A DNA stretch of 26,847 bases, from IMG/VR virus record IMGVR_UViG_2645727810_000007; one strand, written 5' to 3'. Both the position numbers and the translations under genes were made by a program. Numbering within the stretch: position 1 is the stretch's first letter; every line of letters begins with the position of its first letter. The notes under the pieces are model-generated. The model was not told the origin of the DNA. It saw only the letters and a program-made list of their open reading frames with translations, and made no database searches. Shown in pieces: positions 8,932 through 11,225 of this stretch. The stretch is from a virus. Lineage: Duplodnaviria; Heunggongvirae; Uroviricota; Caudoviricetes.

Positions 8932-9405
8932 GTGGAACAAGTGATTAAAGTTACAGCAATTGCCATTATCCTTCTCACCATGTCACCCATTACAGCAACG
9001 GCAAAAAAAATTAATGTTTTGAATGGCTATCCACAGGAAGTAACGACCATTATTAATGACCCTAAAAATGAAGTGGTAATGATTAAGTCATTTAATGTCG
9101 ATTCTTCCGGGTGTGACGTCAGGGAGCAAATGATGCGGATAGATAAAATCACAATGGACTCAGACGATAGATACCCAGAAAAAATGACATTCAGAGATAT
9201 GCAAAACATGCGAATAAGCATGCCAACAAATTTTTCTTCTTTAGATAATGCCAGCAGATCATGGACTGATAGCATGTTCTCAGAAAACGAATGGGTAAAT
9301 GTTCAATATTTACTTTGCGGCTCTGGAGGATTCCCACAAATGACTTCCATATCCAAGCATTCAAAGAGGTTCCCTAAAGTTGGTGTAACGATAGGTAGCA
9401 AGTAA
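8932..9405 (+). CDS. Secreted/periplasmic protein of unknown function (AT-rich moron)
   Basis: Only sizeable plus-strand gene within the tail region. GTG start with an AAGGGGA Shine-Dalgarno. N-terminus has K-containing n-region, hydrophobic core VTAIAIILLTM and an ATA|KK cleavage-type motif. GC content visibly lower than neighbours (about 32% in 9001-9060 by my count). Two Cys in the mature part. Confidence 0.5.
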   Translation: MEQVIKVTAIAIILLTMSPITATAKKINVLNGYPQEVTTIINDPKNEVVMIKSFNVDSSGCDVREQMMRIDKITMDSDDRYPEKMTFRDMQNMRISMPTNFSSLDNASRSWTDSMFSENEWVNVQYLLCGSGGFPQMTSISKHSKRFPKVGVTIGSK

Positions 9406-9407
9406 TA

Positions 9408-11225
9408 TTAAGGATTCACTCCACTAGAAAATGCCGCGTTTGTTGACACCCGGCTAACTTGCTGATTGACACTTCTGGTAAGAGCATCAACTGTTGTCGG
9501 GTTACTGTTAACAACAACCGTGCCAATAGTTGTACTGCTGCTACGACTGTTGTCAATTTTTGATGTTGTCTGGCTTGGTGTTGAAGCGATGAGTTGCTGC
9601 TGCTGATAGTAAGCCAGCGTCTCGTTTTCTTTTGCATTAAGAGCGGCGCGAATCTTTGGCACATATTCTCGCGTCTCTTTCGGTAAGGTGTTCCAGTATT
9701 TGGATGATGGTGAATCAAACCCGGTACTGGATATGTATTTTAACTTTTTGTCTACATTGCCCATCCCCCAGTTGTAAGCCATCAGCGCATGGTTAACATT
9801 GCCTTTGTAATGCTTTAGCAAATACTGCATGTACTTTGTGACTGCTGTGCGGGATTTTTCTTCATCAAGTCTCTCATCAATTCCATCACCAACTTTCAGG
9901 CCTAACTCTCTAGCTGTATCAGGCATAAGCTGATAAGGTCCCGCAGCGCCTCTCGAACTGAAAAGATTTTTACCACCACTCGATTCCACCTCACGAATGG
10001 CATCAAGAAGAGAGTCCATGCTTACAGGCTTTACTCCGTCAGGGAGAGGGATATCTGGCTGAATGTTATTGCCATAAATCTCATCTCCCCTACGCCCAAA
10101 ATCGGTGTCAAACCCCATGCTGCGCATGGTATCTCCAAGTTCACGCTTAGAGTAATCAAACGATCCTTTAGCTGCACCCTCAATGTTTTCCCTGTCATTG
10201 TAGAGGTACAAACCATATGCTATTAACCCAGCCAACCATGGAGGAAGGGCACCGCCTGTAAGTTTGCTTCCTACATATGCTGCTGCCAATAGCTTCAGAG
10301 CCTCTTCCGCACCACCAACTGCCTTTGTGAATTGCTTCGTCATATTCCCGGCGTCATTGAAAAAGCCAATGATGTCGCCATGATGTTTCTCAATCCAGGA
10401 ACCAAAAGCCTTCATCCCGTCAATAACGTCTGGAGCGAATGCCATGGCTAAATTTTGCTTTAATCGGGAAAACTCTGAATCAAGTTGCCCAAGAGTGGCA
10501 GCAACCTTCTCCTGCTCTTTTACCTGCTGTGCTGTAATACGGGATTTCTTTGTTTCTGAATCGACAAGCTGCTTAAGTTCCCCTGATTTTATTTTAGCGG
10601 CATCTGTCGGATCGAACCCTGCGGCAGCCATCACCTGCATCAGGTTTTCTTGAGAATGAGTCTTGCCATAGCGAGAAAACTCAGCAAGAGCCTTGTTTGG
10701 GTCGCCGAGCTTATTGATATCTAATCCGGTACGAGCGCCAAGAACCAGCAAATTTTGGGCAGCGCCAGTAAGCCCTCCCATAACAGTTGGATCGGCAATA
10801 TTTGCCAAAGCCATTCTGGCATTCCCAGAAGATGAAATGAACGAGTCACCGTTAAGACCAGCCTGCCGAAATCCCCGCTGAACACCAAACATCTTATTAA
10901 CATCAGAGCCGAAAAACTTGGCCTGTTGACTGGCTCTCACAATTTCGTTGGCAGTAGATGTAAAAAGTTGCTTGATTCCATACAACCCGGCACCGATTCC
11001 CAAAAATCCAGCGGCTGCTGTTGTCACGTTGCGGAAAGCTGAAACAGCGGTTTTACCGAACCTCTCCGTTTCCTGTCGCTGTTTTTCAAGTTCCTTTAGC
11101 CTTTCCTTCTCAGCCCTGGAAAGATCTTTGTTTAATTTACTAACTTCATCTTTTACTTTCCGTTTTCCATTCAGGAATTCATCGGCCTTAATTGTGACCT
11201 TGTAGGCCAACTCATTGATAATCAT
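9408..11225 (-). CDS. Tail tape measure protein with lytic transglycosylase (SLT) domain
   Basis: 605-aa ORF directly after the chaperone pair (ATGA coupling at 11222-11225). Coiled-coil-like N-terminus; C-terminal half carries SLT-type motifs (VESSGGKN...PYQLMPDTARELG...AYNWGMGNV). Confidence 0.8.
   Translation of the reverse strand: MIINELAYKVTIKADEFLNGKRKVKDEVSKLNKDLSRAEKERLKELEKQRQETERFGKTAVSAFRNVTTAAAGFLGIGAGLYGIKQLFTSTANEIVRASQQAKFFGSDVNKMFGVQRGFRQAGLNGDSFISSSGNARMALANIADPTVMGGLTGAAQNLLVLGARTGLDINKLGDPNKALAEFSRYGKTHSQENLMQVMAAAGFDPTDAAKIKSGELKQLVDSETKKSRITAQQVKEQEKVAATLGQLDSEFSRLKQNLAMAFAPDVIDGMKAFGSWIEKHHGDIIGFFNDAGNMTKQFTKAVGGAEEALKLLAAAYVGSKLTGGALPPWLAGLIAYGLYLYNDRENIEGAAKGSFDYSKRELGDTMRSMGFDTDFGRRGDEIYGNNIQPDIPLPDGVKPVSMDSLLDAIREVESSGGKNLFSSRGAAGPYQLMPDTARELGLKVGDGIDERLDEEKSRTAVTKYMQYLLKHYKGNVNHALMAYNWGMGNVDKKLKYISSTGFDSPSSKYWNTLPKETREYVPKIRAALNAKENETLAYYQQQQLIASTPSQTTSKIDNSRSSSTTIGTVVVNSNPTTVDALTRSVNQQVSRVSTNAAFSSGVNP

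What the first reader, a model, noticed from the sequence alone, without database searches (positions are those of the whole stretch)
8932..9410. AT-rich plus-strand gene for a signal-peptide protein, convergent with the tape measure gene
A 157-codon gene on the opposite strand to the whole late operon. GC content is clearly below its neighbours (about 32% in 9001-9060 versus roughly 50% elsewhere), it has a GTG start with a good Shine-Dalgarno, and a predicted Sec signal peptide (hydrophobic core VTAIAIILLTM, ATA|KK). Its stop codon is only 2 bp from the tape measure stop on the other strand, so late transcription must collide with or read antisense through it. These are hallmarks of a horizontally acquired moron expressed in the lysogen, potentially an exported lysogenic-conversion or exclusion factor. 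I recognise no family.
Basis: partly seen in the sequence, partly recalled or inferred. Interest (0 to 1): 0.6.

Follow-up and report, generated by a model that had tools for sequence, protein, structure and literature searches.

The report
Exported prophage protein in sieA-like slot
A real, rare and uncharacterised prophage gene encodes a small secreted beta-barrel protein and sits tail-to-tail against the tape-measure gene, where phage P22 keeps its superinfection-exclusion gene, so it probably blocks entry of related phages, though this is untested.

Summary
ORF 8932-9405 (+) has 157 codons, a GTG start and an AAGGGGA Shine-Dalgarno. It ends 2 nt from the stop of the convergent 605-aa SLT-domain tape-measure-like gene. 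Its GC content is 38.2% against 46.3% for the window, lower but less extreme than claimed.

It is a genuine gene: dN/dS is 0.12-0.29. It belongs to a very rare family (26 representatives among 1.84 billion proteins) with no Pfam, PHROG, NCBIfam or PADLOC match. Every complete member has a variable Sec-type signal peptide (here ATA|KK). The mature domain is conserved, with invariant G-C and C-G-S-G-G motifs. AlphaFold models it as a generic OB-like beta-barrel with no close structural relative.

In all 15 loci with 38-99% identical homologues (E. coli, Yersinia, IMG/VR), the gene abuts the 3' end of the tape-measure gene of the same myovirus tail lineage. A distant 131-aa branch sits just after the spike gene of that lineage.

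In E. coli the slot is polymorphic. It holds this gene, an unrelated exported ORF, or a deletion scar. The layout mirrors P22 gene 16 / sieA / mnt-arc-ant.

Best reading (about 0.4): a periplasmic superinfection-exclusion factor. Expression and function are untested.

The parts
8932..9405 (+). Coding sequence of the 157-aa exported protein (GTG start, TAA stop).
   Evidence: ORF list and sequence. The same CDS is called by PGAP in four E. coli genomes. 18 homologous clusters were found. dN/dS is 0.12-0.29 in informative pairs.
8932..9003 (+). Predicted Sec/SPase I signal peptide, residues 1-24 (MEQVIKVTAIAIILLTMSPITATA), with predicted cleavage ATA|KK.
   Evidence: Heuristic scan. The segment varies in sequence but keeps the n/h/c pattern and an A|K/R junction across the family. 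AlphaFold gives a low-pLDDT N-terminal helix at residues 3-15.
9004..9402 (+). Mature domain of 133 aa, an OB-like beta-barrel. G60-C61 and C129-G-S-G-G133 are invariant or nearly invariant (at least 90% of sequences) family-wide. The PTNFxxLDNASRSW motif is conserved.
8920..8926 (+). Shine-Dalgarno AAGGGGA, 5 nt upstream of the GTG.
   Evidence: Sequence. It aligns with AAGGA upstream of ATG starts in homologous loci.
8838..8931 (+). Upstream leader and presumed promoter block. It is retained in part or in full (down to about 50 nt in L030) in all three slot states and whatever cargo lies further upstream. It contains the TGCGTG motif at 8873-8878 (TGTTGCGTGTT in other lineages). It also contains a degenerate -10-like GATACAAA at 8897-8904 that aligns with TAGAAT/TAAAAT/CATAAT elsewhere.
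   Evidence: Comparison of L002, L003, L004, L018 and L030. Multi-lineage alignment. The consensus promoter scan found nothing here, so promoter function is inferred. The region is less structured than shuffled controls.
8927..9420 (.). Approximate extent of the presence/absence cassette. It runs from just after the Shine-Dalgarno remnant to the last about 4 codons of the tape-measure gene.
   Evidence: Filled versus empty junctions are '...gttacaagg|ggaaagttGTG...TAAta|ttaaggattcactccactag' versus '...gttacaagg|tgac|taaggcattgcactag'. The tape-measure C-terminus tracks the slot state: SGVNP (this gene), SGVTP (alternative ORF), SAMP (empty).
9408..11225 (-). Convergent neighbour: a 605-aa tape-measure-like tail protein with an SLT lytic-transglycosylase domain at residues 402-498. 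It is the proposed functional partner or target class.
   Evidence: Pfam SLT 1.5e-21; PHROG 2013 'lytic tail protein' 5e-188. Adjacency is conserved in all 15 loci with close or medium homologues.
9521..9636 (+). Two weak terminator-like hairpins with T-runs on the + strand (9521-9556 + TTTTTG; 9588-9626 + TTCTTTTG). They lie inside the antisense of the tape-measure gene and are possible 3' ends of the transcript.
   Evidence: Tool scan and my own hairpin scan. They are absent downstream of the homologues in the other seven homologue loci scanned, all from other lineages, so this is weak evidence.

Best explanation
**What it is.** The gene encodes a Sec-exported, probably signal-peptidase-I-cleaved, periplasmic protein of about 15 kDa. 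The mature part is an OB-like beta-barrel, probably stabilised by a C61-C129 disulfide. The gene is an optional cassette in a fixed slot of an E217/XM1-type temperate myovirus tail module, tail-to-tail with the SLT-bearing tape-measure gene. It lies next to an Arc/Ant (immI-like) block. This is the mirror image of P22's gene 16 -> sieA <- ... mnt/arc/ant arrangement.

**Proposed mechanism (inferred).** The protein is made from its own upstream region in the lysogen. In the 131-aa branch it is made together with the late tail genes. It accumulates in the periplasm. There it binds a periplasm-crossing part of an incoming tail of the same phage type: the tape-measure C-terminal/SLT region or the spike tip. 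This blocks peptidoglycan passage or conduit formation, so DNA injection fails (homotypic superinfection exclusion).

**Consequence of the layout (inferred).** Because the two genes converge with no terminator between them, late transcription during induction would read antisense through the gene and shut it off.

**Shown versus inferred.**
- Shown: the gene is real, it has export signals, its family is rare, its position is fixed, and the slot is polymorphic.
- Inferred: cleavage, the disulfide, timing of expression, the target and the exclusion phenotype.
For: **Real, constrained gene.**
- 18 clusters at 53-99% identity.
- dN/dS 0.12-0.29.
- 35 invariant positions in the alignment.

**Export.**
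- n/h/c signal architecture in all complete members, with a conserved A|K/R junction.
- Two Cys invariant or nearly so family-wide.
- Distant members are fused to periplasmic or surface modules: PDZ, Sel1, Adhesin_E.

**Link to this tail type.**
- In all 15 loci with homologues of 38-99% identity, the gene is convergent with the SLT tape-measure gene. Spacing ranges from an 11-nt overlap to a 10-nt gap.
- The 131-aa branch is homologous (hhalign 98.8%, E = 7e-17). It lies in the same tail lineage directly after the spike gene.
- Another member lies in a similar prophage.

**Slot behaviour typical of exclusion morons.**
- The E. coli slot holds this gene, an unrelated 133-aa ORF with a signal peptide, or a deletion scar.
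- In IMG/VR relatives the slot holds other small exported or hydrophobic ORFs, or nothing.

**Architectural analogy.**
- In the P22 record, gene 16 (+) is followed 22 nt later by convergent sieA (-) with its own promoter, then mnt, arc, ant and gene 9.
- P22 sieA is present in only 22 of 66 P22-like phages, always between genes 16 and 9. It blocks injection by acting on the ejection proteins (PMC10883804).

**Precedents.**
- T4 Spackle is a periplasmic inhibitor of the tail lysozyme gp5 (PMC7677548).
- HK97 gp15 is a moron next to the tape-measure gene that blocks injection (PMC3594210).

**Other points.**
- The prophage already has holin, endolysin and spanin genes at 24197-25414, so a lysis role is not needed.
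- The SLT domain is the one mosaic patch in otherwise near-identical tape-measure proteins: 18 substitutions in residues about 420-470. This is compatible with selection at an inhibitor interface.
Against: - There are no functional data of any kind.
- No homology in sequence or fold to any known exclusion protein or lysozyme/transglycosylase inhibitor.
- No recognisable sigma-70 promoter upstream in the window. The -10-like element is degenerate compared with other lineages, so lysogenic expression is unproven.
- Identity of the protein does not track identity of the tape-measure protein. For Yersinia it is 57-70% against 30%. For L016/L017 it is 38% against 56%.
- The 131-aa branch is translationally coupled to a late gene. 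That points to lytic-cycle expression and leaves other periplasmic roles open.
Confidence: 0.4

Rival explanations
1. It is a lysogenic-conversion or host-fitness factor unrelated to phage exclusion. On this reading it is an exported binding module that alters the envelope or host interaction, for example adhesion, serum or colicin resistance, or sequestering a periplasmic ligand or metal. Lambda Bor and Lom are tail-region morons of this sort.
For: - The protein is exported and the slot is accessory.
- One distant member is fused to an Adhesin_E domain, and another has an Adhesin_E-domain gene as a near neighbour. Others are fused to Sel1 or PDZ modules.
Against: - Nearly all contexts examined lie in or near one phage tail lineage, next to the two periplasm-penetrating tail parts. 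A general host-benefit gene would be expected in many phage types and positions.
- The family is absent from 50,697 deposited phage genomes. It is also absent from the one-genome-per-species scan.
- No metal-binding His/Met/Cys cluster is conserved apart from the two Cys.
Confidence: 0.25
2. It is a lytic-cycle periplasmic helper rather than a lysogen-expressed gene. Made during induction, it could protect the producing cell from lysis-from-without, stop progeny tails from being wasted on infected cells or debris (compare T5 Llp), or tune lysis or peptidoglycan remodelling.
For: - In the 131-aa branch the start codon overlaps the spike gene stop (TAATG) and a strong terminator follows. The gene is therefore co-transcribed with late tail genes.
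- No clear sigma-70 promoter lies upstream in the window.
- T4 Spackle, the mechanistic analogue, is made during infection (PMC7677548).
Against: - In the window and in all 15 close or medium homologue loci the gene is antisense to the late operon with no intervening terminator. Late transcription should interfere with it, not drive it.
- A conserved upstream non-coding block with -10-like elements exists in most lineages.
- A complete lysis cassette is present elsewhere in the window.
- This rival overlaps mechanistically with the best explanation. It differs mainly in timing.
Confidence: 0.2
3. The N-terminal hydrophobic segment is an uncleaved signal anchor. The beta-barrel would then be tethered to the outer face of the inner membrane, acting at the inner-membrane step of injection like SieA or HK97 gp15, rather than as a soluble periplasmic protein.
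For: - The uncharged run is 18 residues long (7-24).
- The n-region of the window protein has net charge 0, which is atypical for an efficient Sec signal.
- Known injection blockers at this kind of locus are inner-membrane proteins (PMC10883804, PMC3594210).
Against: - A helix-breaking S-P at residues 18-19 is followed by a canonical A-x-A|K site.
- Small residues at -1 and -3 are conserved across the family.
- The hydrophobic core is only about 11 residues (VTAIAIILLTM).
- Other members have classical positively charged n-regions.
Confidence: 0.1
4. It is a chance ORF or a decaying pseudogene with no function.
For: - It is rare in E. coli (4 of 5426 genomes) and frequently deleted.
- The promoter elements in the window are weak.
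Against: - Purifying selection, with dN/dS 0.12-0.29.
- 35 invariant residues across 47-99% identical homologues.
- A confident AlphaFold domain, pLDDT above 90.
- The Shine-Dalgarno and start codon are conserved.
- Remote homologues are detectable at profile level.
Confidence: 0.02

Closest known systems
Salmonella phage P22 SieA (superinfection exclusion A) and its locus between genes 16 and 9
   Same: - The locus architecture is the same. The gene for the last periplasm/membrane-crossing injection protein is followed by a convergent small envelope-protein gene, 22 nt apart in P22 and 2 nt apart here. Then come an Arc/Ant-type immunity-I block and the remaining late tail gene(s).
- Size is similar: 164 aa against 157 aa.
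- Distribution is patchy within one phage lineage but always in the same slot. sieA occurs in 22 of 66 P22-like phages (PMC10883804). This gene occurs in 4 of 16 E. coli prophages with this tape-measure type.
- Both families contain highly diverged types.
   Different: - There is no sequence similarity (BLASTP E = 2.9; no PHROG hit).
- SieA is a three-pass inner-membrane protein (PMC10883804). This protein has one cleavable-looking signal peptide and a soluble beta-barrel.
- P22 is a podovirus with ejection proteins. This is a contractile-tail phage with an SLT tape-measure protein.
- No function has been tested here.
Bacteriophage T4 Spackle (gp61.3)
   Same: - It is a small Sec-exported periplasmic phage protein.
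- It acts on the peptidoglycan-degrading enzyme carried by an incoming contractile tail, the gp5 lysozyme (PMC7677548).
- This is the most economical mechanism for a periplasmic protein encoded beside an SLT-bearing tail protein.
   Different: - There is no homology by sequence or fold.
- Spackle is, from my own knowledge, a small mainly helical protein. This one is all-beta.
- Spackle is an early lytic gene not linked to gene 5.
- The enzyme here is a family-1 lytic transglycosylase, not a T4-type lysozyme.
- Inhibition is a hypothesis only.
HK97 gp15 moron (YebO-like)
   Same: - It is a moron inserted in the tail operon next to the tape-measure gene.
- It is expressed from the prophage and blocks genome injection.
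- Sensitivity maps to the tail region of the infecting phage (PMC3594210).
   Different: - gp15 is a small inner-membrane protein derived from host yebO.
- It lies upstream of the tape-measure gene.
- No homology was detected here.
Exported exclusion lipoproteins: Streptococcus phage TP-J34 Ltp, T5 Llp, lambdoid Cor
   Same: - They are phage-encoded proteins exported across the cytoplasmic membrane that stop entry of related phages (PMC3952083, PMC9586334).
- From my own knowledge, Ltp targets the tape-measure protein.
   Different: - They are lipoproteins. This protein has no lipobox (no Cys in residues 1-30).
- Llp and Cor act by blocking the outer-membrane receptor FhuA.
- No homology was detected.
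Periplasmic OB-fold proteins (BOF family YgiW/YdeI, CusF/SilF, CcmE)
   Same: - They share the general five-stranded beta-barrel topology.
   Different: - There is no Pfam match.
- The family's own motifs (G-C, PTNF..LxNA.RSW, C-G-S-G-G) are not those of any of these families.

Membership tests
Moron (Hendrix/Juhala sense: independently transcribed extra gene in a phage operon) | Present in some and absent from other closely related phage genomes, at a gene boundary. | tested here: met
   - 4 of the 16 E. coli genomes with this tape-measure type carry it.
- The others have an unrelated ORF or a scar in the slot.
- Basal relatives have the tape-measure gene overlapping the next gene.
Moron (Hendrix/Juhala sense: independently transcribed extra gene in a phage operon) | Base composition differs from neighbouring genes. 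| tested here: met
   - 38.2% against 46.3%, second lowest of 33 genes.
- The same offset is seen in all 12 family loci tested. It is a family trait, not a mark of recent transfer.
Moron (Hendrix/Juhala sense: independently transcribed extra gene in a phage operon) | Own promoter. | tested here: inconclusive
   - No consensus sigma-70 site lies upstream.
- A conserved upstream block exists, with a TGTTGCGTGTT motif and -10-like hexamers in other lineages.
- The aligned element in the window is degenerate (GATACAAA).
Moron (Hendrix/Juhala sense: independently transcribed extra gene in a phage operon) | Own terminator. | tested here: inconclusive
   - There is no room between the convergent stops (2 nt).
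- Two weak hairpin + T-run candidates lie 115-230 nt downstream, inside the tape-measure antisense, in E. coli only.
- None was found in the seven other lineages scanned.
Sec/SPase I secretory protein | N-terminal n-region, a hydrophobic h-region of 7-15 residues, and a polar c-region with small residues at -1 and -3. | tested here: met
   - The segment reads MEQVIK / VTAIAIILLTM / SPITATA|KK.
- The same pattern occurs in all complete family members despite sequence divergence.
- The window protein's n-region has net charge 0, which is weaker than usual.
Sec/SPase I secretory protein | Prediction by a dedicated tool (SignalP or similar) and experimental export. | not testable with these tools
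   No signal-peptide predictor or experiment was available. Only heuristic and comparative evidence was obtained.
Bacterial lipoprotein (Cor/Llp/Ltp-type exclusion lipoproteins) | Lipobox [LVI][ASTVI][GAS]C at the end of the signal peptide. | tested here: not met
   The first Cys is residue 61. There is none in residues 1-30.
P22 SieA family | Sequence homology to SieA types A-C. | tested here: not met
   BLASTP against P22 SieA gives E = 2.9. There is no PHROG or Pfam hit.
P22 SieA family | Multi-pass inner-membrane topology. | tested here: not met
   There is a single N-terminal hydrophobic segment followed by a soluble beta domain. SieA has three transmembrane segments (PMC10883804).
P22 SieA family | Position: convergent with and immediately after the last injection-protein gene, beside an Arc/Ant immunity-I block in the late region. 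| tested here: met
   P22 record compared with the window gene order.
T4 Spackle / known lysozyme and lytic-transglycosylase inhibitors (Ivy, MliC/PliC, PliG) | Sequence or fold similarity to a family member. | tested here: not met
   - No Pfam, PHROG or NCBIfam hit.
- The PDB profile search found nothing below E = 0.67.
T4 Spackle / known lysozyme and lytic-transglycosylase inhibitors (Ivy, MliC/PliC, PliG) | Binds and inhibits the tail-borne muralytic enzyme. | not testable with these tools
   - This needs a binding or activity assay, or a multimer structure prediction with interface scores.
- The only indirect data are gene adjacency and an SLT-allele association that is inconclusive.
Known anti-phage defence systems (PADLOC) | Match to a PADLOC model. 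| tested here: not met
   No match at E <= 1.
OB-fold, BOF/YgiW-type periplasmic proteins | Pfam BOF signature or a strong structural match. | tested here: not met
   [not shown]

The most novel reading that the evidence does not exclude
The 'GC...CGSGG' beta-barrel family may be a new class of periplasmic superinfection-exclusion proteins specific to contractile-tailed temperate phages with an SLT-bearing tape measure. It would bind the tape-measure SLT/C-terminal region, or the spike tip, of an incoming tail in the periplasm and block peptidoglycan passage. This would be a temperate-phage counterpart of T4 Spackle that is not homologous to it. The gene would be kept physically linked to its target gene so that matched exclusion and target alleles travel together. 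The two-allele mosaic patch in the SLT domain would then be the footprint of that arms race.
Probability: 0.15. Interest if true: 0.75.

Novelty: new variant of a known kind. Interest (0 to 1): 0.5.

Why it matters
- **A testable candidate.** Prophage genes that block entry of other phages shape which phages, including therapeutic ones, can infect a strain. Few are known for contractile-tailed temperate phages of Enterobacterales. This locus gives a specific candidate: a soluble periplasmic protein of an undescribed family in the positional equivalent of P22 sieA, with natural controls. Those controls are near-identical prophages carrying this gene, another exported ORF or a scar, plus two SLT alleles.
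- **If exclusion is confirmed.** It would extend the pattern of an exclusion gene placed next to the injection-protein gene from podoviruses (P22) and siphoviruses (HK97) to myoviruses. It would add a new fold to periplasmic anti-injection proteins.
- **If exclusion is not confirmed.** The gene remains an ordinary uncharacterised moron.
- **Annotation benefit either way.** A rare family can be defined (signal peptide plus G-C/C-G-S-G-G barrel). PGAP under-calls the alternative cassette ORF.

Tried and rejected
- **Family libraries.** Pfam, PHROGs, NCBIfam and PADLOC gave no hit for the protein.
- **Phage and genome collections.** There is no match among 50,697 deposited phage genomes. The tape-measure protein is at most 33% identical to any isolated phage (Edwardsiella GF-2). 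The one-genome-per-species scan found no relative.
- **RNA elements.** There are no Rfam gathering-level hits in the window. Permissive hits at 8710-8826 are spurious miRNA-precursor matches to an operator palindrome array. The leader is less structured than shuffled controls on both strands.
- **Promoter and terminator.** No consensus promoter lies upstream. Terminator candidates are not conserved.
- **Co-variation with the SLT allele.** I tested the idea that the gene tracks a particular SLT allele. It is suggestive but not strict and is confounded by linkage and clonality.
- **Co-divergence with the tape-measure protein.** Not seen.
- **Recent horizontal acquisition.** Rejected because of the family-wide GC offset and saturated dS in the conserved slot.
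- **Insertion versus deletion at empty sites.** Empty sites keep the gene's leader up to the Shine-Dalgarno remnant, so they are deletions.
- **Fused-chain AlphaFold run.** I considered modelling the protein joined to the SLT domain. I did not run it because the tool returns no interface or PAE information and accepts only native sequences.
- **Literature.** A search for the RefSeq protein accessions found nothing.

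
Full report
**1. The observation**

Window 8932-9405 (+) is an open reading frame of 157 codons with a GTG start and a TAA stop. An AAGGGGA Shine-Dalgarno lies 5 nt upstream of the start. On the opposite strand, a 605-aa gene (9408-11225) ends at 9408-9410. Exactly 2 nt separate the two convergent stop codons.

The window is a myovirus-type prophage with nearly all genes on the minus strand. Reading in their transcription order:
- holin, endolysin and spanin at 25414-24197;
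- terminase, portal and head genes;
- a DUF3383/E217_gp31-type sheath gene (13780-12290);
- the tube gene and the tail-assembly chaperone;
- the 605-aa protein;
- a variable block (P63C-domain protein, Arc on the + strand, two antirepressors);
- Dit-like, baseplate hub, sheath initiator, baseplate J and wedge genes.

The 605-aa protein has an SLT lytic-transglycosylase domain at residues 402-498 and occupies the tape-measure position.

The GC claim is overstated. The gene is 38.2% GC, against 46.3% for the window. It ranks second lowest of 33 genes (z = -2.4). Only 2.4% of equal-length windows are as low. GC3 is unremarkable.

**2. It is a real, constrained gene encoding an exported protein**

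A search of 5.8 billion clustered proteins found 18 clusters, from E. coli, Yersinia and unnamed assemblies, at 53-99% identity.

In the alignment, the first about 25 residues vary in sequence. They always form a charged n-region, a hydrophobic core and a small-x-small junction before K or R (ATA|KK here). The rest is strongly conserved, with 35 invariant positions. These include C61, C129, LDNxSRSW and CGSGG. That pattern is what signal peptides look like in families.

Nei-Gojobori dN/dS in pairs with unsaturated synonymous sites is 0.12-0.29.

AlphaFold with this alignment gives pLDDT 85.9 and pTM 0.76. It predicts a low-confidence N-terminal helix (residues 3-15) and a confident all-beta domain of seven strands and two short helices.

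No dedicated signal-peptide predictor was available. Cleavage and the C61-C129 disulfide are inferences.

**3. No known family and a generic fold**

- Pfam, PHROGs, NCBIfam and PADLOC gave nothing.
- Foldseek against PDB and against viral models gave nothing below E = 1e-3.
- A PDB sequence-profile search was empty.
- An exhaustive HMMER profile search of 1.84 billion representatives found only 26 proteins at E <= 1e-3. Nearly all have signal peptides. Family-wide, C129, G130 and G133 are invariant; G60, C61, S131 and G132 are conserved in at least 90% of sequences.
- A few members are fused to PDZ, Sel1 or Adhesin_E modules, consistent with a location outside the cytoplasm.

**4. Position is the most informative feature**

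In every one of 15 loci with a homologue of 38-99% identity, the gene is convergent with the SLT tape-measure gene of the same tail lineage. These loci come from E. coli, Yersinia enterocolitica and related species, and IMG/VR contigs. The lineage is marked by E217_gp31 sheath, E217_Gp32 tube, Pam3_gp18 plug and Baseplate_J. Spacing ranges from an 11-nt overlap to a 10-nt gap.

Four loci have a two-domain form of 273-290 aa with its own signal peptide.

A 131-aa branch from Klebsiella, Serratia and metagenomes is homologous (hhalign 98.8%, E = 7e-17). It sits in the same tail lineage but on the late strand. Its ATG overlaps the stop of the spike (Apex-domain) gene, and a strong terminator follows. 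Another member lies in a similar prophage.

Two contexts examined are not obviously in this tail module.

The family is absent from 50,697 deposited phage genomes. The closest isolated phage tape-measure protein is only 33% identical.

**5. The slot is polymorphic**

Only 16 of 5426 complete E. coli genomes have this tape-measure type. Their slot states are:
- Four genomes carry the gene: KCJ3K291, A41, EC16 and E423.
- At least three carry a different ORF in the same orientation. PGAP calls it as 77 aa. It extends in frame to a 133-aa ORF with an N-terminal signal-like peptide.

Empty sites keep the gene's leader up to the Shine-Dalgarno remnant ('...gaaacgttacaagg|tgac|taagg...'). They are therefore deletions of this gene, all sharing one junction.

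The last residues of the tape-measure protein track the slot state: SGVNP, SGVTP or SAMP.

I surveyed 80 IMG/VR loci with SLT tail proteins:
- Five distant relatives (L040, L044, L046, L050, L053) have the tape-measure gene abutting or overlapping the next tail gene by 4 nt, with no ORF between.
- Others carry unrelated small ORFs in the slot. One is a convergent 147-aa signal-peptide ORF 1 nt from the stop. Others are co-directional hydrophobic ORFs of about 70 aa.
- Only 2 of the 80 hold a family member.

The post-tape-measure junction, and the post-spike junction, are therefore hotspots for small exported or membrane proteins. This family is one recurrent occupant.

**6. Composition and age**

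All 12 family genes tested are 3.6-12.2 GC points below their flanks, whatever the background, including a 62% GC locus. Synonymous sites between the E. coli and Yersinia copies are saturated. Low GC is a family trait. It is not evidence of recent foreign origin.

**7. Transcription signals**

The roughly 95 nt upstream of the gene (about 8838-8931) are largely conserved whatever lies further upstream. This holds for P63C, Panacea/LexA or HTH cargo, and in all three slot states. One empty site, L030, keeps only the proximal about 50 nt.

Across lineages the leader shares a TGTTGCGTGTT motif. It also shares, about 30 nt before the start, -10-like hexamers (TAGAAT, TAAAAT, CATAAT, some preceded by TG). 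The aligned element in the window is degenerate (GATACAAA). The consensus scan finds no promoter there.

There is no Rfam family, and the leader is unstructured.

No terminator fits between the convergent stops. Two weak hairpin + T-run candidates lie within the tape-measure antisense in E. coli only.

Independent lysogenic expression is therefore plausible but unproven. The expectation that late transcription reads antisense through the gene is an inference from the layout.

**8. Comparison with known systems**

The annotated P22 record shows gene 16 (+), then convergent sieA (-) 22 nt away with its own promoter. Next come orf59a and mnt (-), then arc and ant (+), then tailspike gene 9. This is the mirror image of the order here: tape-measure gene, this gene, P63C, Arc, Ant, remaining tail genes.

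P22 SieA blocks DNA injection by acting on the ejection proteins gp16 and gp20. It is present in 22 of 66 P22-like phages and always lies between genes 16 and 9 (PMC10883804).

Other precedents:
- HK97 gp15, the founding moron, lies next to the tape-measure gene and blocks injection (PMC3594210).
- T4 Spackle is a periplasmic protein that inhibits the tail lysozyme gp5 (PMC7677548).

None is homologous to this protein. SieA and gp15 are membrane proteins. The resemblance is one of position and presumed logic, not of family membership.

**9. A side test of the 'SLT inhibitor' idea**

Tape-measure proteins of 12 E. coli prophages are nearly identical. The exception is a two-allele patch of 18 substitutions in residues about 420-470, just after the catalytic E-S motif.

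This is inconclusive and is confounded by physical linkage. Protein divergence does not track tape-measure divergence.

**10. Verdict**

The gene is a genuine, rare, uncharacterised family of Sec-exported OB-like proteins. It is an old but dispensable companion of one temperate myovirus tail lineage, and it occupies the sieA-equivalent slot.

The most likely function is superinfection exclusion at the periplasmic or injection step (confidence about 0.4). The alternatives are:
- another envelope or host-fitness role (about 0.25);
- a lytic-cycle periplasmic helper (about 0.2);
- a membrane-anchored variant of the same idea (about 0.1).

It is a new, non-homologous variant of a known kind of element. 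It is moderately interesting and directly testable using the natural controls listed above.

Noticed in passing
window 8724-8813: Four clustered copies of the palindrome ATGCWWGCAT, two of them perfect (8748-8757 and 8804-8813), flank a minus-strand TTGCTT-18-TATAAT promoter upstream of the P63C-domain gene (ATG at 8722). This is probably an operator array for an Arc-like or other repressor. It also produces spurious miRNA-precursor Rfam hits.
   Followed up: partly
window 9820-10020 (tape-measure residues about 420-470): There is a two-allele mosaic patch in the SLT catalytic domain: 69-81% nucleotide identity and 18 amino-acid changes. The 605-aa tape-measure proteins of 12 E. coli prophages are otherwise 96-100% identical. 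The patch starts just after the catalytic E-S motif (REVESSGG) and covers the GxYQxM motif. It is either recombination or diversifying selection.
   Followed up: partly
L018:2687-3088 (also L020, L021): The alternative occupant of the same slot is annotated by PGAP as a 77-aa protein (WP_047085296.1). The frame is open from an upstream ATG, giving a 133-aa ORF with a signal-peptide-like N-terminus (MNILKSTISILFLLSPSVCFS...). It has no Pfam or PHROG match.
   Followed up: partly
window 5619-8785, and the same region in L001-L004, L018-L021, L030-L032: [quoted passage not shown] In the window it holds a P63C-domain gene, an Arc-family gene and two antirepressor genes. Relatives swap in a Panacea-domain gene with a 139-aa partner (a toxin-antitoxin-like pair), a LexA-family gene or an HTH gene.
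   Followed up: partly
L022:6990-7470; L025, L026, L027: In Serratia and Klebsiella-type prophages of the same tail lineage, the 131-aa family member starts at the stop of the spike (PF18352 + Apex) gene (TAATG in L022). In L022 a strong intrinsic terminator follows (CCCGCTctaaGCGGGttttttt). In three of the four loci the Arc/Ant block comes next, in a different place from E. coli.
   Followed up: partly
L035:3424-3867; L036, L038, L039, L041 (about 30 nt after the tape-measure stop); L076:6401-6742; L046:8504-9295: Other unrelated small ORFs with signal-peptide-like or hydrophobic N-termini occupy the post-tape-measure and post-spike junctions in related IMG/VR phages. One is a convergent 147-aa ORF 1 nt from the tape-measure stop. 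These junctions appear to collect exported proteins.
   Followed up: no
window 7722-7747; L030:3033-3055; L010, L015, L016 just upstream of the homologue: A conserved hairpin of the form AAAAAACCCACCtgacGGTGGGTTT follows the Arc gene. A variant (GCCCACctgaGTGGGC) lies just upstream of the homologous gene's leader in other lineages. It has an A-run before and a T-run after, so it is probably a bidirectional terminator that insulates the cassette.
   Followed up: no
window 11225-11440: [quoted passage not shown] This is the usual place for the frameshift-extended chaperone product. I did not examine it.
   Followed up: no
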